From positions 142,721-206,720 of the forward strand of contig CAZNOF010000001.1 of the NCBI GenBank assembly GCA_964574595.1: DNA of 64,000 bases. The letters are read 5' to 3'. The DNA comes from an uncultured Pseudomonadales bacterium. GTDB taxonomy: Bacteria > Patescibacteriota > Microgenomatia > UBA1400 > PJMF01. Below, one piece after another: positions 13,199 to 24,632 of this stretch (its first letter is position 1; each line of letters starts with the position of its first letter). A model generated the notes under the pieces. It was given only the letters and a program-made list of their open reading frames with translations, made no database searches and was not told where the DNA came from. The position numbers and the translations under genes are program-made.

Positions 13199-13756
13199 CT
13201 ATGAAAGCTTCCATATGCCAACAGTCGCAACTCTCTTCTCCTGTAAAGTAATAACTACTGTCCAACGTACTGGTCGGAATCTCAGCAGAGAAAGCTCTGC
13301 TTTAATGCCATCTTTGTAAATAGGAAAACACATATAATCATTTGCCAATAAAAACTTGCCAAGCGATTGGATTTTATCGAGGGCCTTTTTCTTGTCTAAC
13401 ATATAGTAAAAAACTTCAGAACAGATTACTAAGTCGAACTTTTTTTCAAACTTTAACTCTTCAATCGCACCAACCCTAAAATCTACACCTTTCACTCTTT
13501 TTCTAGCACGTTCAATTGCCAATGGAGTGACGTCTATTGCGGTAATATCCGTACATATGCCTTGCAACATTTGCGTAAAATGTCCCTCTGCACAACCGAT
13601 CTCTAAAATTGAAGCATGTGGAACGGAATTCGCATATTCGAGTAGTTTCTTAAATCGTTTCTTTTCGTGTGGCGATGTCTCAAAATGCCAATGGTCTTCA
13701 CCTTTAACATCGAAATCTTTCGCAAGTTGTTGGTACACTTTTATTTGTTTTTCCAT
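13199..13756 (-). CDS. Class I SAM-dependent methyltransferase
   Basis: Motif I ILEIGCAEGHFT and motif II DLVICSEV. Confidence 0.75.
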   Translation of the reverse strand: MEKQIKVYQQLAKDFDVKGEDHWHFETSPHEKKRFKKLLEYANSVPHASILEIGCAEGHFTQMLQGICTDITAIDVTPLAIERARKRVKGVDFRVGAIEELKFEKKFDLVICSEVFYYMLDKKKALDKIQSLGKFLLANDYMCFPIYKDGIKAELSLLRFRPVRWTVVITLQEKRVATVGIWKLS

Positions 13757-13885
13757 AATAGGTCCTTATACACTGCTGTTTTGACGGATTCACGTTCTGG
13801 TACTTTATGTCCTGATGATGGGAATAGGATGGGAACATCTTATTTTCATCCTATTCCCATACTTGCCGATTTATACTTTGGGCAT

Positions 13886-14674
13886 ATGTCATCAGAATCA
13901 TCTCCAACATCCGTCGAAAATCACTTGTGGAACAAAGTTCCGGAAATTACCCTCTTTTTCTGGATCATTAAAGTTTTGTGTACGACAGTCGGTGAAACTG
14001 CTGCGGATTTTCTCAATACCAGTCTTCACTTAGGCCTCAATGGAACGACAATCGTAATGGGAACACTTCTGGCAATTGTTCTATTCTTTCAATTAAAAGC
14101 AAAGAGGTACATTCCCGGGCTCTATTGGCTGGCAGTGGTACTCATTAGTGTGTTTGGAACACTGATTACAGATAATCTTACGGACAATTTGGGAGTAAAT
14201 TTATTGACCTCTACGGCAGTTTTCAGTGTTGCCTTAGTAGCAGTGTTTGGAATATGGTATGCGTTTGAAAAAACTCTTTCCATGCACAGTATATTTACTT
14301 TACGAAGGGAATCGTTCTACTGGCTGACTGTCCTCTGTACCTTTGCGTTAGGAACCGCTGCAGGCGATTTGGTTGCTGAGCAGTTTGATCTTGGATACGC
14401 ACTTTCAGCACTCCTCTTTGCCGGGATTATTGCGGCAATTACTATTGCTCATAAAAAATTCAAACTCAATGCAATCGTCGCCTTTTGGGGTGCTTATATT
14501 TTGACTCGACCACTAGGGGCATCGATCGGAGACTATTTATCTCAGCCAAGTGAAAATGGAGGTCTTGGGCTAGGAACCGTTGTAACAAGTATCATCTTCC
14601 TCACTGCAATTTTAGGTACCGTTATCTATCTGGCAGTTACGAAGAAAGATGTTTCAAAACATCTCACAGCCTAA
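13886..14674 (+). CDS. Polytopic membrane protein with three internal repeats (LCTTVGETAADFL / LCTFALGTAAGDL / LTRPLGASIGDYL)
   Basis: The track ORF starts at 13667, but that stretch overlaps the antisense methyltransferase, so the start was moved to the ATG at 13886. Three repeats of helix–G-x-x-x-D–helix are visible in the translation. Confidence 0.45.
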   Translation: MSSESSPTSVENHLWNKVPEITLFFWIIKVLCTTVGETAADFLNTSLHLGLNGTTIVMGTLLAIVLFFQLKAKRYIPGLYWLAVVLISVFGTLITDNLTDNLGVNLLTSTAVFSVALVAVFGIWYAFEKTLSMHSIFTLRRESFYWLTVLCTFALGTAAGDLVAEQFDLGYALSALLFAGIIAAITIAHKKFKLNAIVAFWGAYILTRPLGASIGDYLSQPSENGGLGLGTVVTSIIFLTAILGTVIYLAVTKKDVSKHLTA

Positions 14675-14719
14675 GTTTCTCTCATCTTGCTCTCATCTCC
14701 CTACCAGTATAATAGCCCT

Positions 14720-15394
14720 ATGCAAATACTCATTGTAGAAGACGAGCTTAAGATAGCTCACTTTCTCAAACGTGGACTTTCCGAGGAAGGATATGTTATC
14801 GACCTTGCCCATGATGGCGAACAAGGACTGGAAAAATTTGAAATAAATTCCTACGACCTTATCATTTTGGATATCATGATTCCCAAAATTAATGGCGTAG
14901 CGGTCTGTAAAACTATACGGGAGAAGGATACGAATATTCCCATTTTAATGTTGACCGCAAAAGCTGCCATCGATGACAAAATTGCCGGGCTTGATGCTGG
15001 GGCAGACGACTACATGATTAAGCCATTTTCATTTGCCGAACTTTCAGCACGGATACGAGCATTACTTCGTCGAGGAAAAAAAGCTGACCCCACCATATTC
15101 ACTATAAATAACTTAGAGCTCAATCCTGCGACGAGAACTGCTAGTCGAGCAGGAAAACTTATTACCCTGACGACCAGAGAATACGCACTCCTGGAATATT
15201 TCATGCGTAACCCCAACATCGTCCTTACAAAAACACAAATACTTGAGCATGTCTGGGACTACAATTACGACGGGCTCTCAAATATTGTGGAAACATACGT
15301 AAAATACCTTCGTAAAAAATTACTGACTAGTAGATCAGAAAAAGAGCTCATTCATACCCTTCGCGGTTCCGGGTACATTCTAAAAATTGCGTAA
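14720..15394 (+). CDS. OmpR-family response regulator
   Basis: Starts MQILIVEDE, has LMLTAK and a winged helix (RGSGY). Start taken at the ATG at 14720. Confidence 0.9.
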   Translation: MQILIVEDELKIAHFLKRGLSEEGYVIDLAHDGEQGLEKFEINSYDLIILDIMIPKINGVAVCKTIREKDTNIPILMLTAKAAIDDKIAGLDAGADDYMIKPFSFAELSARIRALLRRGKKADPTIFTINNLELNPATRTASRAGKLITLTTREYALLEYFMRNPNIVLTKTQILEHVWDYNYDGLSNIVETYVKYLRKKLLTSRSEKELIHTLRGSGYILKIA

Positions 15395-15395
15395 T

Positions 15396-16412
15396 ATGTT
15401 TACCAAAGCCCAAGTACAGCTAACCATTCTCTATTCCATCTTTTTCTTAGGTTTGTTTTGGATTTTCAGTTTTGGACTGTATACATGGATGAATAGTTCT
15501 TTTGGCGAGGGATATATTAGTCAAGTTCAATATCGTCAGGGAGAAAAAATAGTTGATGAGGATTCCATAAAACCAGGAAGTAACAACGAAAAGATAGTCA
15601 CGATCGCTGGAGACGTGGCATTGGATCAGTTACTGCGTATTTTAATTGTCCTCAATGGAGTATTCCTGTTTGTCATTCCTGCAGTATCTTGGTATTTAGC
15701 CAAACGAACCCTCAAACCTGTACAAAAAGTACACGAGCGTCAAAGACAGTTTGTTTCTGATGCTTCACATGAGTTGTGCACTCCGCTGTCCATTATGAGT
15801 GGAGAGATGGAAGTCATCCTCAAAAAAGACAGAAGTGCCCATGAGTATAAGAAAACGATTATCAGTACCAAGGAAGAAGTCGAGCGACTCAATACTCTGG
15901 TAGAGAATCTTTTGTTTCTCGCTCGTGAAGATCAACACAAACATTCCCTTCATATAGAGTCCGTAGATATCACGGACGTTGTACATTCAGCTGTCGCATC
16001 CCTGCATCCAAATGCAAGGAGAAAACAAGTTGAGATAAATTTTGTTCCGCCACAGGAGAGCGTTACAACCAAAGGAAACGCTGCGATGCTCCAGCAACTA
16101 TTTGTCAACCTCATCGATAATGCAATCAAATATACGCCTACAAATGGACATATACGTATCTCCATTACTCCAAAAAAAGATGGGGTGGAGATCATCGTAC
16201 AAGATACAGGAATCGGGATTAGTGATGAACAGAAAGCAAAGATTTTCGACAGATTTTATCGAGTTGATTCTGCACGATCGGAAACCAAAGGATATGGATT
16301 GGGATTAGCCATCAGTAAATCAATTATTGATCGACACCATGGGTCTTTAACTGTAACTTCAATAGTTGGAAAAGGCTCGATGTTTCTTGTAAAGCTTCCC
16401 TACTCAGGATAA
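15396..16412 (+). CDS. Sensor histidine kinase
   Basis: H-box HELCTPLS, N-box LIDNAIKYT, G1 DTGIGIS, G2 GYGLGLAI, with two TM helices. Start taken at the ATG at 15396, just after the response-regulator stop. Confidence 0.85.
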   Translation: MFTKAQVQLTILYSIFFLGLFWIFSFGLYTWMNSSFGEGYISQVQYRQGEKIVDEDSIKPGSNNEKIVTIAGDVALDQLLRILIVLNGVFLFVIPAVSWYLAKRTLKPVQKVHERQRQFVSDASHELCTPLSIMSGEMEVILKKDRSAHEYKKTIISTKEEVERLNTLVENLLFLAREDQHKHSLHIESVDITDVVHSAVASLHPNARRKQVEINFVPPQESVTTKGNAAMLQQLFVNLIDNAIKYTPTNGHIRISITPKKDGVEIIVQDTGIGISDEQKAKIFDRFYRVDSARSETKGYGLGLAISKSIIDRHHGSLTVTSIVGKGSMFLVKLPYSG

Positions 16413-16491
16413 GTCTTCCTATTTTCGATTCATCTTCTTCCCACCATTCCCTCTGTATAGTTGGCTATAGAAAGGGGGTGAACAAAATCAT

Positions 16492-16971
16492 ATGAATAAA
16501 TTAACACTACCAGTTCTCGCCTTAGCGATCATTGGAGTTGGTGGAAGTGTCTACACGATCGCAAATAATCGTGCAAATACCGTCCACGCTCAAACAGCTG
16601 CAGTATCAACGCAATCAGCGACAGATATACCTGAGGTTAACGACACACCGGATGTTCAGGAGCCAAAACAAGCTTCTATTACTTCTGGTGTGACCGTTCC
16701 TGAGTCGGCTACGGAGATGGACGATACTGCTGAAAACTCGAAACTCACTACATTGGCAAAAATTAGTGAAGCCCAAGCGAAAGCAGCAGCCGAGAAAAGC
16801 GTTGGTGGTACTGCAAGCTCAGTGAAGCTTGAAGAAGAAAACGGCAACGTGGTCTATACCGTCACAATTGGTGACAAAGAGGTAAAGATCGATGCTGGAA
16901 ACGGCTCAGTACTTCGTACTGAAGCTGCCGATAGCACAGAAACTCATGATCAGACTGATAAGGCTGACTAA
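16492..16971 (+). CDS. Secreted PepSY-domain protein
   Basis: Signal peptide and a C-terminal PepSY-like segment (AKAAAEKSVGGTASSVKLEEENGNVVYTVTIGDKEVKIDAGNGSVL). There is a good GGGGTG RBS upstream. Confidence 0.6.
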   Translation: MNKLTLPVLALAIIGVGGSVYTIANNRANTVHAQTAAVSTQSATDIPEVNDTPDVQEPKQASITSGVTVPESATEMDDTAENSKLTTLAKISEAQAKAAAEKSVGGTASSVKLEEENGNVVYTVTIGDKEVKIDAGNGSVLRTEAADSTETHDQTDKAD

Positions 16972-16990: not shown

Positions 16991-17018
16991 GGGAGATCGT
17001 AAAGGTCTCCTGTTTTTG
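16991..17018 (+). terminator. Rho-independent terminator after the PepSY gene
   Basis: GGGAGAtcgtaaaggTCTCC hairpin followed by TGTTTTTG. Confidence 0.45.
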
Positions 17019-17132
17019 TAGTACTACTTTTACTGGATGAGAACTAAAGCAAATACTAAAGTGTGTATTTCTCTCTTTATAAAGAGAGTGTTGGAGTGCG
17101 CATAGTAAAGCTGAACTTTCAATTTCTTAATT

Positions 17133-17678
17133 CTACGGCATGAACAAGTAGTGATATTCGTCAAAGGCAAAATAACTTGGGTGGTTGAGTAGCTGATCTG
17201 CTATTTCCCATGCAGTCATATCCTCGGAGATTCGATAAGAAGCATATATATCGACAGTATTATTTCCTACCCTCAAAGCATCTGTCCTCCCAGGCAATTT
17301 ATCTACAGAGTGCTCTAAGGCATACTTCAATGCTTTCTCATCTCGCACAAATCCGTAATACTCTAAATTGCTCAGTAGAGCTGAGAGTGTTGTACCTTGC
17401 GTCAGGCGCAAAGTAATCTTGCCATCACTTCCTTTAGAAGAGCGAGCTTCTTTTGCTTCCGCGGGTGTCATATGCAAACGTTCCAAATAGTAATCCTCAA
17501 CTTTCTTAGGTGAATTCCAATTTTTCCCTGGTGCTTGAAAACTTTCTTCACTTGGTTTTGTCAAACTGATCTGCATTGGTGAATTCGGTTGTTTAATCAC
17601 AAGGGCAACAGACGCCAATATGATGGATAGTAGAATCAAAAGCAAAAGTCGGTTTTTTGTGAACAGTTTTTTTATCAT
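17133..17678 (-). CDS. Membrane-anchored protein, weak resemblance to the N-terminal (non-catalytic) YceG/MltG-like region
   Basis: N-terminal TM helix and a short ITLRLTQGTTLSALL..GFV segment. It is too short to carry a catalytic domain. Confidence 0.3.
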   Translation of the reverse strand: MIKKLFTKNRLLLLILLSIILASVALVIKQPNSPMQISLTKPSEESFQAPGKNWNSPKKVEDYYLERLHMTPAEAKEARSSKGSDGKITLRLTQGTTLSALLSNLEYYGFVRDEKALKYALEHSVDKLPGRTDALRVGNNTVDIYASYRISEDMTAWEIADQLLNHPSYFAFDEYHYLFMP

Positions 17679-17733
17679 CGCTATTTTATTATACGTCTCT
17701 TTGGCAACTCATTTCTCTCTCGAGGTTAATCTG

Positions 17734-17761
17734 TTGACATTTGTCACGATCTAGATATACT
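17734..17761 (+). promoter_or_regulatory. Sigma70-like promoter of the T4SS-like operon (TTGACA-16-TATACT)
   Basis: TTGACA at 17734-17739 and TATACT at 17756-17761 with a 16-nt spacer, about 50 nt upstream of the pilin start. Confidence 0.45.
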
Positions 17762-17811
17762 TTGAGACAATAACAACCATTAGCTGCCCTAATGTATAGA
17801 ATGGGCGGCTT

Positions 17812-18138
17812 ATGAAAAAAATAATTGTTTTCCAATTTTTCGTTTTCTCTTTTTTACTCCTCGCCTCTCCTGTCTTTGCTCAAGCTACCGATATTGCGAA
17901 GGTTCAGAACTTTATTACCAGTATCATCCAATCACTAGTACTCCTCGCAGGAGCATTAGCCTCTGCTTTCTTTGTCTGGGGTGGGATCAGCTATATCACC
18001 AGCTCAGGAAATCCAGAGTCACTTGAAAACGCTAAAAAAACTATTAAGTATTCAGCGATAGGTCTCACTATTTGCTTAGCCGCATTTGTTATTACAAATA
18101 TCGTCACTCAGTTGGCACAGAAAGCATTTGGTCAATGA
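17812..18138 (+). CDS. VirB2/TrbC-like T4SS pilin
   Basis: 108 aa: a signal peptide (SPVFA|QA) followed by two hydrophobic helices separated by a short polar loop, which is the VirB2 topology. Confidence 0.55.
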   Translation: MKKIIVFQFFVFSFLLLASPVFAQATDIAKVQNFITSIIQSLVLLAGALASAFFVWGGISYITSSGNPESLENAKKTIKYSAIGLTICLAAFVITNIVTQLAQKAFGQ

Positions 18139-18154
18139 GTAGAGAACATGAAGC

Positions 18155-19453
18155 ATGCGTCACACCACCGTATTCATCATTTTCATTTTGCTTGCTATAT
18201 TCCTACCGTCGCCTGTTTTTGCTGTTTCCAATAACCTAGAAGTTACACAATTCACCTCATCAACACTCAACACTCTCACTATTCTTGCCTCTTTGGTAGC
18301 CACCTTTTTTCTACTCCAGGGAGGATATCTCTATATCACCTCAGCAGGAAAGCCTGATGCGCTGCAAGCAGCAAAGAAAACAATTCGGAATGCATCGATC
18401 GGATTAGTGTTGGTTCTCTCCGCAAACACAATTACTTCTCTACTCACTGGAGCATTTACGACTCCAAGTATCCCGATAGATGGAAATTCCCTCGCTTTAA
18501 CGCCAATCGAACCCGTGGCTCCAAGTAGCGGGTTGGCTCAAGTGTTAACTGATTCCATCGCCTCTCTACTTCAGAATATTATCCAAAGTGCTACCAAACC
18601 CATTACGGATGCGATTCTTAGCTTTCTCACCATTACCCCCACTCTGGCAACAAACTCCGTAATTTTTAACTTCTGGCTCATTATCGTAGGTATAACCGAC
18701 TCACTCTTTGCACTTCTGATTGCAGTCTTAGGCTTTCAATTTATGAGTGCGTCAACATTTGGATTTGAAGAACTTGAGCTCAAACAATTATTGCCTCGCA
18801 TTGGTCTGGCCTTTTTAGGAGCAAACACATCCATTTTTATCATTGACTGGATTGTGAAGTTGCTCAATGTTCTCGTGTCTGCAATTCTTCATGCCACGGG
18901 AGGACTCAATCAAGTATGGCTTGCCAACGCGTTTAACCCCGCATCACTGTCTACAGATCAAATTGCACTCATCACACTGATCTTTATGATTCTCTTTCTT
19001 ATCCTGGCAGTCGTTCTGCTACTTTTCTATATCACACGCTTAATCGTGATTGCGCTGGGAGCGGTACTTTCTCCATTACTGTTTTTGCTTTGGTCAGTAC
19101 CAAAGTTTGCTGATTTTGCAGAAATCTCAGCCAAGTCGTATCTGGTAACCGTTTTCTCTATCTTCATACACGTTGTCATCATTCAATTGGCTGCTTCATT
19201 TTTAACACTTCCGGGACAGGTGGGAACAAATTCACTGATCTCAATTCTCGTTGGTGTAGGACTCCTTATGACACTCCTGAAAACTCAATCATTTATGATT
19301 CAACTCATGTTTTACAACTCCGGTCGTTCGATGATCAAACGCATTGGTGGGCAGTTGATGAATGTGATGAGTAGTAAGCAATCGGAATCGACTGCGACGC
19401 CATATTTTGCCGATAAATCTATAAAAACTGCGAGAAAGGTTGTGAACGCATGA
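18155..19453 (+). CDS. Pilin-like N-terminal module fused to a VirB6/TrbL-like polytopic membrane domain
   Basis: The first ~100 aa are paralogous to the upstream pilin (SPVFA cleavage site, LAS/LVA helix, YITS[SA]G[NK]P[ED][SA]L..AKKTI). The remaining ~330 aa contain at least five TM helices. Confidence 0.55.
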   Translation: MRHTTVFIIFILLAIFLPSPVFAVSNNLEVTQFTSSTLNTLTILASLVATFFLLQGGYLYITSAGKPDALQAAKKTIRNASIGLVLVLSANTITSLLTGAFTTPSIPIDGNSLALTPIEPVAPSSGLAQVLTDSIASLLQNIIQSATKPITDAILSFLTITPTLATNSVIFNFWLIIVGITDSLFALLIAVLGFQFMSASTFGFEELELKQLLPRIGLAFLGANTSIFIIDWIVKLLNVLVSAILHATGGLNQVWLANAFNPASLSTDQIALITLIFMILFLILAVVLLLFYITRLIVIALGAVLSPLLFLLWSVPKFADFAEISAKSYLVTVFSIFIHVVIIQLAASFLTLPGQVGTNSLISILVGVGLLMTLLKTQSFMIQLMFYNSGRSMIKRIGGQLMNVMSSKQSESTATPYFADKSIKTARKVVNA

Positions 19454-19935
19454 GAACCACTATTATTCCTGCTCAAATTACATCAGTTGAAGATACCATT
19501 GCAGGGAATTTAAACCTGCAACAAATTGTGTTGTTTATTCTTTCCCTTTTTATCAATACCTTTTTGTATGCGCTTCTTCCTATGCGCCTTGCGTTTACGT
19601 TCTACAAAATTCCAATCATGATCGCGGTCTTCGTAGTATGCATTGGTCTATCGCTTCGAATTAAGCAACGGATCGTTCTCGATTGGCTGGTTGTCTTTGT
19701 TCGATATGCCATTCGTCCACATCTGTATTTCTTTAATAAGAATTCGGAAGTTTTCCGATCCATCGTCGTTGAAAAAGTAATTCTCAAACAATCATTCAAA
19801 CAAACTCCTATTCTCGATTACAAGCTAGATCGTCCCAATTCATCCGCCTTCGACTATACATCCCTTTTACGTAATCCATCGCTAAACATCCAGTTCAAAC
19901 GCAATCGTGTTCAGGTAATCAAAAACTATGAGTAG
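19450..19935 (+). CDS. VirB3/PrgI-like small membrane protein
   Basis: 161 aa with two TM helices, immediately upstream of VirB4 and overlapping the previous gene by ATGA. Confidence 0.4.
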   Translation: MRTTIIPAQITSVEDTIAGNLNLQQIVLFILSLFINTFLYALLPMRLAFTFYKIPIMIAVFVVCIGLSLRIKQRIVLDWLVVFVRYAIRPHLYFFNKNSEVFRSIVVEKVILKQSFKQTPILDYKLDRPNSSAFDYTSLLRNPSLNIQFKRNRVQVIKNYE

Positions 19936-20542
19936 ACTCAACAAAGCAGCATCGTCTCGGTCACAGATCAACATCAAAGAAGTCAAAGATGGTGTTCTGG
20001 TTTTGCCTGGAAAAAAGTACCGCATGATTGTTGAGACATCAGCAGTGAACTTTGAATTGAAAAGTGAAGAAGAACAAGATCAAATCATCGACATGTTCCA
20101 AAATTTCTTAAATTCTCTTCCTTGCCCTGTACAAATACTTATACGAACCAGAGAAGTGGATATCGATGGCTATCTTGAGGAGTTTATGCAGCACAAATCT
20201 CAAGAGAAAGAAGTAGTCTACAAGGAACAGATTGATGAATACGCTTTGTTTATTAAGAAACTCATCTCAGGAAACAAAATTCTTTCTCGAAAGTTTTTTA
20301 TCGTCATCCCATATACCTCAGAAAATGGAAAACACGACTTCTCTCTCATTAAAGAACAACTTCAAGTAAGTGTAGATATTATTTCAAAAGGGCTTGAGCG
20401 AATGGGGATGAAGACACGGACACTCGGAAATTTGGAAACGCTCGACCTTTTCTATAGTTTTTATAACCCTGCTCATACAAAATCTCAGCCATTAACTAAA
20501 AAGGCTGTCCAAGCATTACTAGCGGAATCCTATGGAATTTAA
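19928..20542 (+). CDS. VirB4 N-terminal domain as a separate ORF
   Basis: 204 aa. Together with the next ORF (597 aa) the length matches a canonical ~800-aa VirB4/TrsE. The junction is ATGGAATTTAA, i.e. translational coupling in a different frame. Confidence 0.45.
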   Translation: MSRLNKAASSRSQINIKEVKDGVLVLPGKKYRMIVETSAVNFELKSEEEQDQIIDMFQNFLNSLPCPVQILIRTREVDIDGYLEEFMQHKSQEKEVVYKEQIDEYALFIKKLISGNKILSRKFFIVIPYTSENGKHDFSLIKEQLQVSVDIISKGLERMGMKTRTLGNLETLDLFYSFYNPAHTKSQPLTKKAVQALLAESYGI

Positions 20543-22325
20543 ACCAGTTACATATCTGACGAAAAGAATAAAAGCATTTCAAAAGCGAAAAAAAACGCAA
20601 GACAAAGCACGTCAATTTGAATTTGGAACACAAGATCAAGTCGATCTGATTTCCTATGCCAGCTTGAAAGAAACGTCAAACTATATTGAACTCGATGGGA
20701 AAGTCATGCGAACACTTTTTATATCAGGCTACCCGTATGTTGCAACGACTGGCTGGCTCTCAATGCTTACCAACTTCAATCATAACGTCGATATCTCGTA
20801 TCACATTGAACTGGTTGATCCCTTGATTGCACTCCCTAAACTCACTCGAAAAATCACTGAACTTGAATCAACCCGGCGATCCATGCTCACCGAAGGGAAA
20901 ATTATTAGCTCAGAGATCCTTGATCCACTTGAGTCCGCCATGAAACTCAAAGATAGAATTCTACGAGGACAAGAAAAACTTTTCCAGGTCTCCATTTATG
21001 TCACATTGATTGCTGACACGCTTTTGGATCTCAATAAGACGACTACTCTTTTGGAAACCACTCTTGCCACAAAACTGTTCTATACAAAAATTGCCGGATT
21101 CCAGCAGCTTGAAGCATTGCAGTCAATTCTGCCTAGAGGAGAAAATCTATTGGCACAGAAAAGAAACTTAGATAGTTCTTCTGCTGCCCTTACTTTCCCA
21201 TTCACATCCTCGGAACTCGTGCAGGAATCAGGAATTTTGTATGGAATCAACAAATCCAATAATTCCCTTGTCATCATCGATCGATTTTCACTTCACAATG
21301 CGAACAGTATTATCTTTGCCCAATCTGGAAGTGGAAAAAGTTATTCTGCAAAAGTAGAAATTTTACGTCAACTGATGCAGAAGACAAAAGTGATTGTAAT
21401 CGATCCGGAGCGTGAATATAAACAACTGTGCGAATCTCTCAACGGTACATATATCAAATTATCCGTTAATTCCAAAGAAAAGATCAATCCGTTTGATTTC
21501 TCTCTCAATGCCTCTGGTTCGGAAAATAGCCTCGCCGAACATATTCAGGACCTCACCGAGGTAATTTCACTTATGGTTGAGGGTCTTACGGCTCAAGAAA
21601 AAGCAATTCTCGACCGTGCCATCATCCAGACATATAAGGAAGCTGGGTTTTCGCTTCGAGCAGTTCAAAAATCTCGAGGTAAACATGTCTATCCACTCTT
21701 GAAACACTTATATAAAAACCTAAAAGCTGAGGGAGAAAAAGGTTTGACAGCCAGACTAGAAAAATTTGTAACAGGTTCGCTTGCGACCGTGTTTGATAGT
21801 CAGACAAACATTAAACTCGATAATCGCCTGGTTATTTTTGACATAAAAGATCTTCCTGAATCAATTCGAAAGATTATGCTCGTGATCGTGGCAAACTTTG
21901 TCTACAACCAAGTGAAAATAGAGCCTCAAAAACGTTTACTCATAATTGATGAAGGCTGGTTACTCCTGGAACACCAAGAAAGTGCCAGATTTGTGGCTGG
22001 GTTAGCGCGTCGAGCCAGAAAATATTATCTCGGTGTAAGTATCATTACCCAACAAGCCAATGACTTTTTAAACAATGAATATGGTCGAGCGATTGCCTCA
22101 CAGGCCTCTTTGAGGATTCTGATGCGTCAGGACACCACCACCATCGCAGGAGTAGCTCGAGAATTCAAACTCAGTGAATACGAAGAAAAATTCCTACTCA
22201 CCTGTGATCGAGGTGAAGCCATTATCATTGCAGATCAGAATCATGTGGCGATAAAAGTAGTGGCTTCCGAGAAAGAACATCCTTTAATAACCACAGATCC
22301 CAAAGAACTTTTCCAAACCCCATGA
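20532..22325 (+). CDS. VirB4/TraC/TrsE-family T4SS ATPase (C-terminal ATPase portion)
   Basis: Walker A AQSGSGKSY, Walker B LLIIDEGW, plus AGLARRARKY and ITQQ motifs. Confidence 0.8.
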   Translation: MEFKPVTYLTKRIKAFQKRKKTQDKARQFEFGTQDQVDLISYASLKETSNYIELDGKVMRTLFISGYPYVATTGWLSMLTNFNHNVDISYHIELVDPLIALPKLTRKITELESTRRSMLTEGKIISSEILDPLESAMKLKDRILRGQEKLFQVSIYVTLIADTLLDLNKTTTLLETTLATKLFYTKIAGFQQLEALQSILPRGENLLAQKRNLDSSSAALTFPFTSSELVQESGILYGINKSNNSLVIIDRFSLHNANSIIFAQSGSGKSYSAKVEILRQLMQKTKVIVIDPEREYKQLCESLNGTYIKLSVNSKEKINPFDFSLNASGSENSLAEHIQDLTEVISLMVEGLTAQEKAILDRAIIQTYKEAGFSLRAVQKSRGKHVYPLLKHLYKNLKAEGEKGLTARLEKFVTGSLATVFDSQTNIKLDNRLVIFDIKDLPESIRKIMLVIVANFVYNQVKIEPQKRLLIIDEGWLLLEHQESARFVAGLARRARKYYLGVSIITQQANDFLNNEYGRAIASQASLRILMRQDTTTIAGVAREFKLSEYEEKFLLTCDRGEAIIIADQNHVAIKVVASEKEHPLITTDPKELFQTP

Positions 22326-22921
22326 ATCCATTCTTACTCTGGAACATTTTTTCCTTTCGTCATGAAATTAAATATGTTGCCTTAGCTTTCATTCTCATCC
22401 TCTGTTTGCCGTTCATTGCTGTGATCGCCCTCACCCATACAGGAACAGATGTTGTTTCTGATCAATTGGTCAATAGTACACAAAATGAGTCAGTCGAAAT
22501 TAAAAACCCTCTGAATGGAACAATTCTCAAGAAAATAGATGGACCATTCATCTGGCCAATACATGGAAGAATTACTCTTGAATTTGGAGAGTCTGATTTG
22601 CCCTACCAGCCATTTCATACGGGGATAGATATTGCCGGAAAACCTGGAGATCCTGTGATCTCATTTCTTAAAGGTACAGTGATCTATGCTGGAGAACTGT
22701 CTTGGGGATATGGAAAACACATCATCGTTGATAACGGAAACAATGTGACGTCACTCTACGGCCACTTAAGTAAGATTTCAGTCAAAAAAGGGGATGTAGT
22801 CCCTCAAGGACAAATAATTGGATTGAGAGGAAGTACAGGATGGTCAACTGGAGCACACCTTCATTTTGAAACGAGAGTATTTGGAATCCCAGTCAATCCA
22901 AGGGTATTTTTAGGAAAATAG
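22322..22921 (+). CDS. Membrane-anchored M23/LytM peptidase (T4SS-associated wall hydrolase)
   Basis: N-terminal TM helix, HTGIDIAG and HLHFE motifs. Overlaps the VirB4 stop by ATGA. Confidence 0.8.
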   Translation: MNPFLLWNIFSFRHEIKYVALAFILILCLPFIAVIALTHTGTDVVSDQLVNSTQNESVEIKNPLNGTILKKIDGPFIWPIHGRITLEFGESDLPYQPFHTGIDIAGKPGDPVISFLKGTVIYAGELSWGYGKHIIVDNGNNVTSLYGHLSKISVKKGDVVPQGQIIGLRGSTGWSTGAHLHFETRVFGIPVNPRVFLGK

Positions 22922-22927
22922 ATAATC

Positions 22928-24331
22928 CTAATATTTCATATCAACGTAGTAGCCAGTCCTTCCATAGCACGGGTACCCACTTTTAGTTTTATGCGGATTG
23001 AGGCTCCCACTATGTGTAGTTTTCGTAAACCGCTTGCCGCAGGCAGTACATTGATAAATGTATCTTGGTCCAACTGAAACGCTTCTTCTCGTTCTTCCAA
23101 ATCTTGTTCTAGGCGCACTTAATGGTTTGTTTGGATCAAACAGGTGAGGATCTTCTGGCGTTTCTCCTGCCTTAGATAGTTCTATAATAAAACCCTCCCT
23201 GGGTTTGAATTTTTCTTCAGTGTTCTCTATAGATTGAAAGTTCTCCGATACAAAACACCGAACCCCAGGAGCACTTTGTCCACCAGAACAGTTGTATACG
23301 TAAAAATATTCTCGTTCTTGTCCATCTCTTTTTTGGAGGTATTTCAATGAATAAGGCTCGATCATTCGATTTTCTCCTTTATAGCAGACCTTCAAAAGAG
23401 TTTGAGTTCGAGCGGCGTGCATAATTGGATTTCTTAACTCAGGTCCAAAGTATGCAAACTGCGAATACCCATTATCTGGATATACACTGAAGAGTGTCTC
23501 CAAATCTCCTAAGAATGTGGCAATTGCCTCGTCTACACCAAACACAAATTGTTGTGCACACACCAGAGTTTTATCCCAGTATTCTCTAAAGTAATCAAAT
23601 GAAGTTTTGAGTAGGATATTTTTCAATACGTGAGGGTTTTTATCAAATATCGTTTTACGTATTAGCGTTTGGACGACTTCTTCTTTGTTGAGTTGTCCTC
23701 CCAACATTTTTATAGAGTAAGCGTAGTCAAACAGGTCGGGAGCGTGTTGTCGTTGAAGCAAACACTTAAGTTTAGTTGCAATAATCTCTTCTAGCTTCAT
23801 ACATCGTATGTCTGTAGTGAGCTCGCCTGCATCAGAATATGGGTGAATCAATTTTACAGTTTGGATTGGCAAAAGTACTTTATCAAAACGGGTAATATCC
23901 ATTGAAATTCGTATCCTGAAATGCTCAGCATTTCCATAAAAGTCACGAAAGTAGACTCGTGCTTCGTACACTTTCAGTCCGGGGATCGGAGCTTCACTCG
24001 CAGAAAATTTCTCTTCAACTTTATTATCCTCCTTAATAAAAGAGACATGTGCTTTCTCTTGAATAAAATCACAAACATTATTGATCTCTTTTAGCAATAT
24101 TTCCTGTGATATGTCTCCTGGAATACCAAAGTCTAAATCTGCTGAAAAGCGAGTGTTTTCGAAGTAGCCTTTACGGAGAGCGTTGCCTCCTTTTAGAAAA
24201 AGCTCATCTTTGAGGCCACTCACCGTGAAAAAGCCGTGAATTAGCCAGCCAAAAACATAATCCCTCTCCACATTTGACCGATGGATTTCAAATTCGACAG
24301 CTTTGGCATCAATTTCTTCTTTTTTGATCAT
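22928..24331 (-). CDS. AbiEii/DUF1814-like Pol-beta nucleotidyltransferase fused to a WYL-like domain and a C-terminal zinc-finger-like tail
   Basis: NTase motif FLKGGNALRKGYFENTRFSADLDF (hG[GS]...DhD). WYL-like segment RMIEPYSLKYLQKRDGQEREYFYVYN..GVRCFVSENFQSIE. C-terminal YQCTACGKRFTKTTHSGSLNPH (C-x2-C...H...H). Start set at M34 (24331) to avoid overlapping the divergent XRE gene. Confidence 0.55.
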   Translation of the reverse strand: MIKKEEIDAKAVEFEIHRSNVERDYVFGWLIHGFFTVSGLKDELFLKGGNALRKGYFENTRFSADLDFGIPGDISQEILLKEINNVCDFIQEKAHVSFIKEDNKVEEKFSASEAPIPGLKVYEARVYFRDFYGNAEHFRIRISMDITRFDKVLLPIQTVKLIHPYSDAGELTTDIRCMKLEEIIATKLKCLLQRQHAPDLFDYAYSIKMLGGQLNKEEVVQTLIRKTIFDKNPHVLKNILLKTSFDYFREYWDKTLVCAQQFVFGVDEAIATFLGDLETLFSVYPDNGYSQFAYFGPELRNPIMHAARTQTLLKVCYKGENRMIEPYSLKYLQKRDGQEREYFYVYNCSGGQSAPGVRCFVSENFQSIENTEEKFKPREGFIIELSKAGETPEDPHLFDPNKPLSAPRTRFGRTRRSVSVGPRYIYQCTACGKRFTKTTHSGSLNPHKTKSGYPCYGRTGYYVDMKY

Positions 24332-24422
24332 ATCTCGAGTGCAATATCTTTTGGATTGTAGTCCTCTTCCGTAAAAATCTCCAGTGCGCGGAATCTTTCT
24401 TGAATATAGTATAATTTCGAGT

Positions 24423-24632
24423 ATGGCCACTAAGAAAACAGATCAGAACGCTTTTGGAGTGCTTCTGAAAGAAGCGAGAGTAAAACTCGAGCTCACCCAG
24501 ACTCAAGTCGCCGAAAAAGCAGACATGACTAGTACTTACTATGCAATGATCGAACGAGGAGAAGTAAATCCTTCTCTTGAAAAGCTCAAGAGCCTGGCTA
24601 AAGTGCTTAAGATCAAATTGACAATCTCTTAA
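24423..24632 (+). CDS. XRE-family (Cro/CI-type) HTH transcriptional regulator
   Basis: LLKEARVKLELTQTQVAEKADMTSTYYAMIERGEVNPSLEKLKSLAKVL. It is divergent from the NTase-WYL gene. Start taken at the ATG at 24423. Confidence 0.75.
   Translation: MATKKTDQNAFGVLLKEARVKLELTQTQVAEKADMTSTYYAMIERGEVNPSLEKLKSLAKVLKIKLTIS

What the first reader, a model, noticed from the sequence alone, without database searches (positions are those of the whole stretch)
17812..19453. Pilin gene duplicated and fused to a VirB6-like domain
Residues 1-100 of the 432-aa protein align by eye with the free 108-aa pilin immediately upstream. Both share the signal peptide ending SPVFA, the hydrophobic helix, and the block YITS(S/A)G(N/K)P(E/D)(S/A)L..AKKTI(K/R)..(A/S)IGL. 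The rest is a polytopic VirB6/TrbL-like domain. A covalent pilin-VirB6 fusion beside a free pilin is unusual. It may tether the pilus base to the inner-membrane channel.
Basis: seen in the sequence. Interest (0 to 1): 0.55.

Follow-up and report, generated by a model that had tools for sequence, protein, structure and literature searches.

The report
Pilin domain fused to VirB6 platform
In this ultra-small (Patescibacteria/Microgenomates) bacterium, the membrane platform protein of a type IV secretion machine carries a built-in copy of the pilus subunit encoded just upstream; this arrangement is conserved in over a hundred related species but is not described in the papers I could search.

Summary
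The 108-aa ORF (17812-18138) and residues 1-98 of the 432-aa ORF (18155-19453) are 40% identical (E=5e-21; 43%, E=1e-18 without the signal peptides). Both pass Pfam's cutoffs for T4SS_pilin and TrbC/VirB2.

The rest of the 432-aa protein is a complete VirB6/TrbL core. Its relatives pass TrbL_4, R388 TrwI/VirB6 and Legionella DotA are the top structural matches, and a profile alignment covers TrwI residues 4-306.

The fusion is neither an artefact nor a local oddity. In 80 species-level genomes of Microgenomates and allies, wherever the contig allows, the operon is: free pilin, pilin::VirB6, VirB3/PrgI, split VirB4 (N-part plus ATPase), cell-wall hydrolase. The duplication is ancient, because free and fused copies form separate clades.

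A Pro/Ser/Thr-rich linker of fixed length (25 aa) joins the two domains. The closest unfused relatives are actinobacterial TrbL proteins.

My best reading (about 0.4) is a permanently tethered pilin layer on the VirB6 platform that nucleates or anchors the free-pilin polymer. The nearest precedent is archaeal CedA, whose N-terminus resembles the CedA1 pilin. The fusion may also explain why a 2025 survey found VirB6 "scarce" in Microgenomatia.

Verdict: a new variant of a known kind, of moderate interest.

The parts
17734..17761 (+). Promoter-like site TTGACA-16 nt-TATACT, about 50 nt upstream of the free pilin gene
   Evidence: It matches 11 of 12 consensus positions and is the best site in 17000-23200. 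The total number of sites in that region is not above the shuffled expectation. Consensus match only.
17812..18138 (+). Free VirB2-like pilin, 108 aa: signal peptide (cleavage predicted after VFA), two hydrophobic helices, K-rich loop
   Evidence: PF18895 54.6 bits, PF04956 33.4 bits. NCBIfam NF045849 'Mbov_0395 family pilin-like' 42.1 bits, cutoff 40. Hydropathy. Orthologues lie immediately upstream of the fusion gene in 79 of the 79 loci that hold both genes.
18155..19453 (+). Whole pilin::VirB6 fusion gene, 432 aa
   Evidence: Single uninterrupted ORF. An identical protein is on record on a 229,805-bp contig. The same architecture occurs in more than 1,100 clusters and in 79 of 80 loci; the exception, L001, is a 1.9-kb contig on which no fusion ORF was called.
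18155..18223 (+). Signal peptide of the fusion protein (aa 1-23, ...SPVFA|V)
   Evidence: Hydrophobic span and A-x-A-like site. It is dispensable: 4 of 79 loci and many 402-407-aa clusters start at the mature N-terminus MN(P/S)EVA.FT, with an in-frame stop 2-5 codons upstream.
18224..18454 (+). VirB2-like pilin domain of the fusion (aa 24-100): helix 28-62, K/R-rich loop, helix 67-100
   Evidence: 40-43% identity to the free pilin. PF18895 41.2 bits. AF2 helices have pLDDT 81-90. The loop at aa 58-80 is the best-conserved part of this domain.
18455..18532 (+). Linker (aa 101-126), Pro/Ser/Thr-rich and predicted disordered
   Evidence: pLDDT is below 50 for aa 103-116 and 118-122. The stretch measured (aa 101-125) is exactly 25 aa long in 90 of 90 relatives and 22-31 aa in the broad set, while its sequence is poorly conserved: majority fraction 0.27.
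18533..19390 (+). VirB6/TrbL core (aa 127-412): extracytoplasmic helix 127-159, then five long hydrophobic helices 168-202, 209-248, 268-314, 316-350 and 360-412; a K/R-rich tail follows
19450..19935 (+). VirB3/PrgI-like small membrane protein, 161 aa; its start overlaps the fusion gene's stop
   Evidence: PF12666 PrgI E=8e-4, below cutoff. PrgI (weak) is on record for the orthologue in L081. The position is conserved in the loci.
19928..20542 (+). Separate N-terminal part of VirB4 (TraC-like/TrsD-like), 204 aa
   Evidence: Aligns to CD1110-family VirB4 positions 11-172 of 752 and to VirB4_plasma 105-284 of 894; the TrsD match is weak. PF26593 TraC-like in L081. It is a separate ORF in all loci.
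20532..22325 (+). VirB4 ATPase (C-terminal two thirds), 597 aa
   Evidence: NCBIfam CD1110-family VirB4 352 bits, cutoff 325, positions 167-734. Pfam P-loop_TraG, AAA_10 and DUF87.
22322..22921 (+). M23 peptidase, 199 aa; probably the cell-wall hydrolase of the machine (a VirB1 analogue)
   Evidence: PF01551 109.7 bits. Conserved as the last gene of the operon. A CHAP hydrolase replaces it in a related subfamily.

Best explanation
Identity (confidence about 0.95). The 432-aa protein is the VirB6/TrbL platform subunit of a chromosomal, monoderm-type (MPF-FATA-like) type IV secretion system of a Microgenomates-group Patescibacterium. A VirB2-like pilin module, an old paralogue of the free pilin encoded just upstream, is fused to its N-terminus through a 25-residue flexible linker of fixed length.

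Mechanism (inferred, confidence about 0.4). After membrane insertion the pilin module sits as a two-helix hairpin with its N- and C-termini outside and its K/R-rich loop inside, the same orientation as a free pilin. The linker and helix 127-159 lie outside the membrane. The next two helices (168-202 and 209-248) are the counterparts of TrwI alpha1/alpha2. In R388, alpha1 and its vicinity form the site where VirB6 recruits VirB2. If this VirB6 oligomerises as R388 VirB6 does (a pentamer), the platform carries one covalently tethered ring of pilin-like subunits beside its own pilin-binding sites. I propose that this ring is a built-in 'layer zero': it nucleates the polymer of the free pilin and holds it on the platform. 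In diderm systems that job is done by non-covalent VirB2-VirB6 contacts together with VirB5 and VirB10, none of which was found in this operon. VirB4 (here split into two genes) with VirB3 would extract free pilin from the membrane, and the M23 hydrolase would open the wall.

Shown here: the domain identities, the paralogy, conservation of the operon, the linker properties, and the alignment to TrwI. Inferred: the topology, the oligomeric state, the contact between tethered and free pilin, and the nucleation or anchoring role.
For: - Pilin module: BLASTP E=5e-21, or 1e-18 without the signal peptides; Pfam matches above cutoff.
- VirB6 core, sequence evidence: the C-domain alone finds 469 clusters at 50% identity. 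Unfused hits pass TrbL_4 (P0250 52 bits, P0224 32, P0215 31.4, P0242 29.3, P0248 28.5). Of 85 relatives, 34 hit TrbL_4 and 24 hit TrbL.
- The pilin module is extra to a complete core: hhalign maps aa 145-418 to TrwI 4-306, including LSPLLFLLW against LGPLFILALIW, and Pfam TrbL covers TrwI 40-259.
- A real, selected gene: 79 of 80 loci carry the single fused ORF, always with a free pilin upstream where sequence exists, followed by VirB3, VirB4-N, VirB4 and a hydrolase. The same operon occurs in a 43%-identical subfamily.
- Non-redundant old paralogues: two reciprocally exclusive clades, with 34% identity within a genome against 61% and 49% among orthologues.
- Pilin-specific function retained: the shared loop motif is as conserved as the VirB6 helices, with majority fraction 0.79 in the close set and 0.60 in the broad set.
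- Geometric constraint: linker length is fixed at 25 in 90 of 90 sequences while its sequence drifts.
- Not matured like a normal pilin: a subclade lost the signal peptide on the fused copy only.
- Topology fits: unfused relatives have a signal peptide directly before the core, so the core's N-terminus is extracytoplasmic.
- Published framework: the VirB6 pentamer holds a VirB2 recruitment site on TM alpha1 and an assembly site, and the pilus has C5 symmetry (PMC9259494). The VirB10 TM helix occupies that site in the resting machine (PMC11294453).
Against: - Nothing was measured: there is no multimer model, no contact prediction between the pilin module and the core, and no experiment.
- In the published model the pilus grows from its base. 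A permanently tethered basal layer is awkward in that model, because new layers would have to insert above it, or the 25-residue tether (at most about 9 nm, my estimate) would stop growth after a few layers.
- It is not known that these bacteria make T4SS pili at all, or that their VirB6 is pentameric.
- The window protein itself is below Pfam's cutoff for TrbL_4 (18.2 bits, cutoff 27). The Foldseek E-values (0.04-0.1) and the hhalign probability (24%) are individually weak, so the VirB6 assignment rests on their agreement.
- The 5-TM count and the topology come from hydropathy and the AF2 helices only.
- Near-invariant A100, T103 and P104 at the domain boundary could be a processing site.
Confidence: 0.45

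Rival explanations
1. Autoinhibitory plug. The tethered pilin hairpin binds in cis (or to the neighbouring subunit) at the pilin-recruitment helices of VirB6 and keeps the platform closed until a signal displaces it. This would replace the role that the VirB10 transmembrane helix plays in R388. Free pilin polymerises only after displacement.
For: In R388 the VirB10 TM helix covers the entire VirB2 recruitment site on VirB6 alpha1/alpha2 in the resting state (PMC11294453). No VirB10 was found in this operon. The module is tethered one linker and one helix away from the alpha1/alpha2 counterparts. A fixed linker length fits an intramolecular docking geometry.
Against: A plug needs only to bind VirB6. 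The loop motif shared with the free pilin is strongly conserved, which suggests the module keeps pilin-type contacts beyond VirB6. No contact or regulatory evidence exists. This reading is not exclusive of the 'layer zero' reading.
Confidence: 0.2
2. Insertion or stability device with no pilus role. The pilin-like hairpin merely replaces the signal peptide seen in unfused relatives. It delivers the N-terminus of the VirB6 core to the outside by the same route as pilins and adds two membrane anchors.
For: Unfused relatives carry a signal peptide (plus, in many, a Pro/Thr-rich linker) at the same place. A subclade of fused proteins has lost its own signal peptide, so the hairpin can act as the insertion signal. 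[quoted passage not shown]
Against: An insertion signal would not need to keep the pilin-specific polar loop motif GGY.YITS.GKP..L..AK.TI.NA.IGL across the whole clade at the level of the core helices, nor a linker of fixed length.
Confidence: 0.15
3. Polyprotein precursor. The protein is cleaved in the linker, releasing a second (minor) pilin and a conventional VirB6.
For: Some T4SS pilins are trimmed at the C-terminus before maturation (RP4 TrbC; my own knowledge). The free pilin ends ...AFGQ exactly where the fused module reads ...AFTTP, and A100, T103 and P104 are nearly invariant among close relatives.
Against: The operon contains no TraF/LepB-like maturation peptidase, only an M23 or CHAP wall hydrolase. 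The rest of the linker has no conserved motif in the broad set, yet its length is fixed, which is unnecessary for a discarded spacer. No genome among the 80 loci has the two halves as separate genes.
Confidence: 0.1
4. Artefact. A frameshift, a lost stop codon or a mis-assembly joined a second pilin gene to virB6 in this one assembly.
For: None beyond the general possibility in metagenome assemblies.
Against: The same single ORF is found in 79 of 80 independent species-level genomes and in more than 1,100 protein clusters, with amino-acid conservation across the junction.
Confidence: 0.01

Closest known systems
Archaeal Ced/Ted DNA-import systems: CedA (VirB6-like) and CedA1 (VirB2-like pilin) (Beltran et al. 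2023, PMC9905601)
   Same: The membrane-channel protein has an N-terminal region homologous to nearly the whole pilin encoded in the same system. The authors conclude that one evolved from the other, and they see the same relationship more weakly for A. tumefaciens VirB2 and VirB6. It is a minimal machine: VirB2, VirB6 and VirB4 homologues, with no outer-membrane parts.
   Different: It is archaeal and imports DNA. The relationship was detectable only by profile comparison and is mentioned in one passage and a supplementary figure. Here the two copies are 40% identical, the module is set off by a discrete linker, and profile alignment shows it is additional to a complete TrwI-equivalent core. 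I could not compare sequences with CedA directly.
R388 TrwI/VirB6 with TrwL/VirB2 (Mace et al. 2022, 2024; PDB 7o3v, 8rt9, 8rtd)
   Same: The core is homologous and structurally closest. VirB6 is the proposed recruitment and assembly platform for the pilin.
   Different: In R388 the pilin and VirB6 are separate proteins that interact transiently. TrwI has only about 23 residues before alpha1. The R388 machine also has VirB5 and VirB7-11 and spans two membranes.
Patescibacteria T4SS as surveyed by Quinonero-Coronel et al. 2025 (PMC12102498) and shown essential in Southlakia epibionticum (Wang et al. 2023, PMC10633639)
   Same: It is chromosomal and monoderm MPF-FATA-like, with VirB4, TrsD-like, PrgI/VirB3, VirB6 and VirB2-like pilins. 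Relaxase is usually absent, and the locus often lies near dnaA. This locus belongs to that system.
   Different: Those papers describe separate VirB6 genes and arrays of free pilins. They report VirB6 as 'scarce' and VirB2 arrays as abundant in Microgenomatia. Neither paper mentions a VirB2-VirB6 fusion (term searches).
Actinobacterial and Firmicute-type TrbL-family proteins (Pfam TrbL_3 PF19590, TrbL_4 PF19597)
   Same: They are the closest unfused relatives of the core, with the same helix order.
   Different: They begin with a signal peptide, often followed by a Pro/Thr-rich spacer, directly before the core, and have no pilin hairpin. Gram-positive T4SSs generally lack VirB2 pilins (PMC12102498).
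'Extended' VirB6 proteins
   Same: They are VirB6 cores carrying extra domains.
   Different: A 2025 review describes those extra domains as large, hydrophilic, and central or C-proximal (PMC12857230). Rickettsia RvhB6 paralogues and the F-plasmid TraG N-domain are examples from my own knowledge. None of these extensions is an N-terminal pilin-like hairpin.
Mycoplasma ICE conjugation genes (Mbov_0395 pilin-like protein, CDS16 VirB6-like, Mbov_0397 VirB4)
   Same: The free pilin passes the NCBIfam model for the Mbov_0395 pilin-like protein. VirB4 matches the related models, though below the cutoff for the Mycoplasma family. It is a minimal monoderm machine (PMC12857230).
   Different: It is a mobile element with a relaxase and a coupling protein. 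Whether its 8-TM VirB6-like protein has a pilin-like N-terminus was not examined.

Membership tests
VirB2/TrbC-type T4SS pilin (Pfam PF04956, PF18895) | Match to the family profile at or above the curated cutoff | tested here: met
   Free pilin: 54.6 bits (cutoff 26.6) and 33.4 bits (cutoff 27.9). Fused module: 41.2 bits (cutoff 26.6) and 28.3 bits (cutoff 27.9).
VirB2/TrbC-type T4SS pilin (Pfam PF04956, PF18895) | Signal peptide followed by two hydrophobic helices joined by a short, positively charged loop | tested here: met
   Hydropathy and K/R counts. AF2 helices 28-62 and 67-100. In a subclade the fused copy lacks the signal peptide.
VirB2/TrbC-type T4SS pilin (Pfam PF04956, PF18895) | Small stand-alone protein (about 70-130 aa) that can leave the membrane and polymerise | tested here: not met
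   Met for the 108-aa free pilin. Not met for the fused module, which is covalently joined to a 330-aa membrane protein in 79 of 80 loci. The fused module is therefore 'pilin-like' rather than a pilin in the functional sense.
VirB2/TrbC-type T4SS pilin (Pfam PF04956, PF18895) | Assembles with phospholipid into a helical pilus | not testable with these tools
   Needs purification and cryo-EM or cryo-ET. The PDB sequence search with the pilin profile found no solved relative.
VirB6/TrbL (Pfam PF04610, PF19590, PF19597) | Match to a family profile at or above the curated cutoff | tested here: inconclusive
   The window protein scores 18.2 bits on TrbL_4, cutoff 27, but a precomputed PF19590 hit is on record for the identical protein P0001. 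Of 85 relatives, 34 hit TrbL_4 and 24 hit TrbL at E<=0.01, and several unfused relatives pass the cutoff. NCBI names one family member 'conjugal transfer protein TrbL family protein' (P0313).
VirB6/TrbL (Pfam PF04610, PF19590, PF19597) | Polytopic protein with about five hydrophobic helices and an extracytoplasmic N-terminus | tested here: met
   Five long hydrophobic helices follow residue 168 and map one-to-one on the five hydrophobic spans of TrwI. A signal peptide precedes the core in unfused relatives. The topology is inferred, not measured.
VirB6/TrbL (Pfam PF04610, PF19590, PF19597) | Fold similarity to solved VirB6-type proteins | tested here: met
VirB6/TrbL (Pfam PF04610, PF19590, PF19597) | Encoded beside VirB3 and VirB4 | tested here: met
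VirB6/TrbL (Pfam PF04610, PF19590, PF19597) | Forms the (pentameric) base of the stalk and binds pilin | not testable with these tools
   Only a monomer prediction was available. The oligomeric state is assumed by analogy with R388.
Patescibacteria chromosomal MPF-FATA-like T4SS | VirB4 of the monoderm (FATA) type, with TrsD-like, PrgI/VirB3, VirB6 and VirB2-like genes nearby | tested here: met
   VirB4 passes the CD1110-family model (352 bits, cutoff 325). The 204-aa ORF matches VirB4 N-terminal regions and TrsD weakly. The PrgI match is weak. The operon is conserved.
Patescibacteria chromosomal MPF-FATA-like T4SS | Chromosomal location without relaxase or coupling protein nearby | tested here: met
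   Neighbours are housekeeping genes: FtsZ, FtsA, Mur ligase, a PBP, a tRNA synthetase and two-component systems. No T4CP or relaxase domain occurs among the ORFs scanned. Not every ORF of the window was scanned.

The most novel reading that the evidence does not exclude
The tethered pilin ring acts as a molecular ruler and primer. Each platform subunit holds one pilin-like subunit on a 25-residue leash, so the machine would build a short conduit of fixed length, anchored across the wall, rather than a long sheddable pilus. This would be a different assembly logic for a T4SS filament. In addition, the locus would be the clearest surviving intermediate showing how conjugative pilins and the VirB6 N-terminus are related by duplication, fusion or fission, an idea so far supported only by weak profile matches in archaea and Agrobacterium.
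Probability: 0.15. Interest if true: 0.75.

Novelty: new variant of a known kind. Interest (0 to 1): 0.5.

Why it matters
1. A conserved natural fusion of VirB2 to VirB6 is 'Rosetta-stone' evidence that the two proteins work in direct contact. This independently supports the model, drawn from the R388 cryo-EM structure, that VirB6 is the platform on which pilin is recruited and assembled.

2. It probably explains an anomaly in the 2025 survey of Patescibacteria. VirB6 appeared 'scarce' and two-gene 'pilin arrays' appeared abundant in Microgenomatia. The second 'pilin' of the pair may be the missing VirB6.

3. The related T4SS is essential for the epibiotic life of a cultivated Patescibacterium. 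Knowing that a large uncultivated class uses a six-gene machine with a tethered pilin gives a compact target for structural work.

4. Together with archaeal CedA/CedA1, it bears on how conjugative pilins originated.

5. On the practical side, database names for this family are inconsistent ('pilin', 'TrbL family protein', 'hypothetical'). The free pilin is named a TRAP transporter subunit by one source, which looks like a misannotation.

Tried and rejected
- The first AF2 run, on 24 close homologues, gave pLDDT 52 and was unusable. A 90-sequence alignment that included 39-45%-identical relatives raised it to 75.
- Profile searches of PDB sequences found nothing real, either for the fusion family or for the free-pilin family (chance hits to profilin).
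- hhalign of the shallow family profile (Neff 2.7) against a single TrwI sequence gave only a 26-column chance match. The broader 85-sequence profile (Neff 5.8) gave the full-length alignment. Its probability is still low because the template is a single sequence.
- The genome scan with the broad alignment A3 failed because it had no sufficiently conserved stretch, so A1 was used. The 80 loci are therefore biased towards relatives of 50% identity or more.
- The AFDB fold library was unavailable, so I could not check for archaeal CedA-like structural matches or for annotated AFDB entries with the same architecture.
- I tested whether the pilin hairpin might simply be VirB6's own alpha1/alpha2 hairpin, as Beltran's remark on VirB2 and VirB6 might suggest. 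I rejected this for the present protein. TrwI aligns from its residue 4 to residue 145 onwards here, and all five hydrophobic spans of TrwI are accounted for downstream of the module.
- A recent local duplication was rejected by the two-clade tree.
- I considered covariation analysis between the module and the core but did not run it. About 330 partly redundant sequences are too few for a reliable result.
- Literature searches for a described VirB2-VirB6 fusion found none. The library holds open-access papers and preprints only.
Full report
**The observation**

Two adjacent same-strand ORFs occupy the stated interval: 17812-18138 (108 aa) and 18155-19453 (432 aa), separated by 16 nt. BLASTP of the small protein against the large one aligns residues 1-99 with 1-98 at 40% identity and 67% similarity, with one gap, E=5e-21. 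With both signal peptides removed, the mature regions still align at 43% over 70 residues, E=1e-18, under composition-adjusted statistics. The similarity is therefore not generic hydrophobicity. Both signal peptides end SPVFA, and the block YITS.G.P..L..AKKTI....IGL is shared. Both proteins pass the curated cutoffs of Pfam T4SS_pilin (PF18895) and TrbC/VirB2 (PF04956). An HMM built from the module finds only these two ORFs in the 64-kb window.

**The C-terminal 330 residues**

- Sequence search. A phmmer search with residues 106-432 alone against 1.84 billion cluster representatives found 469 clusters at E<=1e-3 and 124 at E<=1e-10. Among 85 near-full-length hits, 34 match TrbL_4, 24 match TrbL/VirB6 PF04610 and 43 match T4SS_pilin. 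Unfused hits such as P0250 (52 bits), P0224, P0215, P0242 and P0248 pass the TrbL_4 cutoff.
- Profile alignment. I fetched R388 and aligned the 85-sequence family profile to TrwI with hhalign. Residues 145-418 align to TrwI 4-306 (262 columns, E=8e-4 for the single comparison). The invariant LSPLLFLLW motif falls on TrwI LGPLFILALIW. Pfam TrbL covers TrwI 40-259. The five hydrophobic spans of TrwI correspond one-to-one to helices 168-202, 209-248, 268-314, 316-350 and 360-412 here.

The core is therefore a complete VirB6. The signal peptide, the pilin hairpin, the linker and most of helix 127-159 are additions upstream of it. The pilin module is not VirB6's own alpha1/alpha2 hairpin.

**Is the fusion real, and how common is it?**

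- The identical protein is on record on a 229,805-bp contig.
- A search of 5.8 billion proteins gave 1,125 hits at E<=1e-3 among the 8,000 candidates scored. The 120 best are all 402-441 aa, and 119 of them carry PF18895.
- A scan of one genome per species (185,579 species) with two conserved peptides found 160 genomes, of which 80 loci were fetched. Record titles name Woese-, Levy-, Davies-, Gottesman-, Pace-, Woyke- and Berkelbacteria and 'Patescibacteria group'. Woesebacteria sit in the Microgenomates group of NCBI taxonomy. Many third-party bins carry implausible names such as Gammaproteobacteria.
- My ORF and HMM analysis of these loci shows one invariant operon wherever the contig allows: free pilin (107-184 aa), pilin::VirB6 (402-501 aa), VirB3/PrgI-like (about 165 aa), a ~205-aa ORF, VirB4 (about 600 aa) and an M23 peptidase.
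- A subfamily only 43% identical (P0274) has the same order next to dnaA, dnaN, rnpA and yidC, with a CHAP hydrolase in place of M23.

In the window the genes overlap or abut, and a TTGACA-16-TATACT site lies about 50 nt upstream of the free pilin. The surroundings are chromosomal housekeeping genes. No coupling protein or relaxase occurs among the ORFs scanned.

**History of the fusion**

Across 79 genomes the free and fused copies share 34% identity within a genome. Free orthologues share 61% and fused orthologues 49%. A neighbour-joining tree has one clade with all 79 fused copies and none of the free ones. The duplication therefore predates the radiation of these lineages, and both copies have been kept under selection. 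The free, presumably polymerising, copy is the more constrained.

The nearest relatives of the core that lack the module are named by their sources as actinobacterial 'TrbL family' proteins (Micromonospora, Gaiellaceae). They, and low-GC relatives, begin with a signal peptide, often followed by a Pro/Thr-rich spacer, directly before the core. This fits the published view that the Patescibacteria T4SS derives from monoderm conjugation machinery (PMC12102498). It also suggests that a pilin gene was fused in front of an SP-bearing VirB6.

**Anatomy relevant to mechanism**

- Hydropathy and charge place the module's K/R-rich loop inside the cell and both of its ends outside.
- Residues 103-122 are predicted disordered.
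- The stretch between the module and the core (aa 101-125 measured) is exactly 25 residues in 90 of 90 relatives and 22-31 residues in the broad set. Its sequence is the least conserved internal segment and is rich in Pro, Ser and Thr.
- The module's loop motif is as conserved as the VirB6 helices.
- In 4 of 79 loci, and in many 402-407-aa clusters, the fused gene starts at the mature pilin N-terminus with an in-frame stop just upstream. It therefore has no signal peptide, while the free pilins in those loci keep theirs.

**Interpretation**

In R388, five VirB6 subunits form the only C5 membrane assembly. Their alpha1 helix and its vicinity were proposed as the VirB2 recruitment site, and the dome above as the assembly site of the C5 pilus (PMC9259494). 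In the resting machine the VirB10 transmembrane helix covers that site (PMC11294453).

The CPR protein places a pilin-like hairpin, in the correct membrane orientation, one fixed-length leash and one helix away from the counterparts of alpha1/alpha2. The operon shows no VirB5 or VirB10.

My preferred reading (about 0.4) is that the tethered hairpins form a built-in first layer that nucleates and anchors the polymer of the free pilin. Four observations favour a retained pilin-type interaction with a geometric constraint: the conserved pilin motif, the fixed linker length, the strict co-occurrence with a free pilin, and the loss of the signal peptide only on the fused copy.

The rivals are:

- a cis-acting plug of the recruitment site (0.2);
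- a mere insertion or anchoring device (0.15);
- a cleaved polyprotein (0.1).

The main difficulty for my reading is that base-growing pili would have to add subunits above a tethered layer, or else stop after a few layers. That alternative leads to the more novel 'ruler/stub' reading.

**Comparison with what is known**

The closest precedent is archaeal. [quoted passage not shown] They saw a weaker signal for Agrobacterium VirB2 and VirB6, and suggested that one evolved from the other (PMC9905601).

For Patescibacteria, the 2025 survey used the same Pfam pilin models. It reported VirB2 'arrays' as especially abundant and VirB6 as 'scarce' in Microgenomatia, and attributed the scarcity to sequence divergence. 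Term searches in that survey and in the Southlakia paper turned up no VirB2-VirB6 fusion, a recent review did not contain the term, and my other searches found none described. The searches cover open-access text only. The two-gene pilin 'array' of Microgenomatia is therefore probably one free pilin plus the missing VirB6. I did not verify this with their profiles.

**Verdict**

The domain assignment is well supported by convergent evidence. The fusion is an ancient, conserved feature of a large uncultivated clade. The function of the tether is inferred only. I rate it a new variant of a known kind, with interest 0.5.

Noticed in passing
window 19928-20542 and 20532-22325 (+): VirB4 is encoded as two overlapping genes. 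The 204-aa ORF aligns to positions 11-172 of the CD1110-family VirB4 model and weakly to TrsD. The 597-aa ORF aligns to positions 167-734 (352 bits, cutoff 325). The split is conserved in essentially all 80 related loci, so it is not a frameshift.
   Followed up: partly
window 22322-22921 (+); L081 11279-11821: The last gene of the operon is a cell-wall hydrolase whose type is interchangeable: an M23 peptidase here and in the 80 loci, a CHAP-domain protein in the 43%-identical P0274 subfamily.
   Followed up: partly
L005, L006, L008, L079 (start of the fused gene); clusters P0021-P0062: A subclade of the fused proteins (402-416 aa) has no signal peptide. The ORF starts at the mature pilin N-terminus with an in-frame stop 2-5 codons upstream. 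In L005 the free pilin's stop and the fused gene's ATG are in the same frame, two codons apart.
   Followed up: partly
L013 and L014 (same contig JBBDPM010000004.1); L035/L044; L043/L048; L017/L025: Several genomes carry two copies of the pilin and pilin::VirB6 locus. The full six-gene operon is seen in both copies for L013/L014 and L035/L044. In the Woykebacteria MAG the two copies lie on one 108-kb contig about 50 kb apart.
   Followed up: no
loci L001-L080 (record titles): Many third-party MAG records that carry this Patescibacteria operon are titled 'uncultured Gammaproteobacteria', 'Pseudomonadales', 'Woesearchaeota archaeon', 'Omnitrophota' or 'Sulfotelmatobacter'. These are probably mislabelled or contaminated bins.
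   Followed up: no
window 17812-18138 (+): One source (JGI) names the free pilin 'TRAP-type C4-dicarboxylate transport system permease small subunit', which looks like a misannotation. NCBI names members of the fusion family either 'pilin' or 'TrbL family protein'. The free pilin also passes the NCBIfam model for the Mycoplasma ICE 'Mbov_0395 pilin-like' protein.
   Followed up: partly
window 22928-24430 (-): A 500-aa ORF convergent with the operon has an AbiEii nucleotidyltransferase toxin domain (residues 69-265) and a long C-terminal extension that ends in a Cys-rich, zinc-finger-like stretch. No antitoxin partner was looked for.
   Followed up: no
window 28076-30280 (-) and 30295-32628 (-): Two adjacent large ORFs (734 and 777 aa) have no Pfam match at E<=1e-5.
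   Followed up: no
window 13667-16971 (+): Upstream of the T4SS operon lie a DUF347-repeat membrane protein, an OmpR-type response regulator, a histidine kinase and a PepSY-domain protein, all on the same strand. A YceG-like ORF (17133-17678, minus strand) separates them from the pilin promoter. Whether the two-component system regulates the T4SS is unknown.
   Followed up: no
proteins P0215, P0232, P0249, P0257, P0265, P0271 and others: Distant unfused TrbL relatives of high-GC type, probably actinobacterial, carry a signal peptide followed by a 60-200-residue Pro/Thr/Ala-rich low-complexity spacer before the VirB6 core. A spacer on the outer face of the membrane is thus a recurring feature of monoderm VirB6 proteins.
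   Followed up: partly
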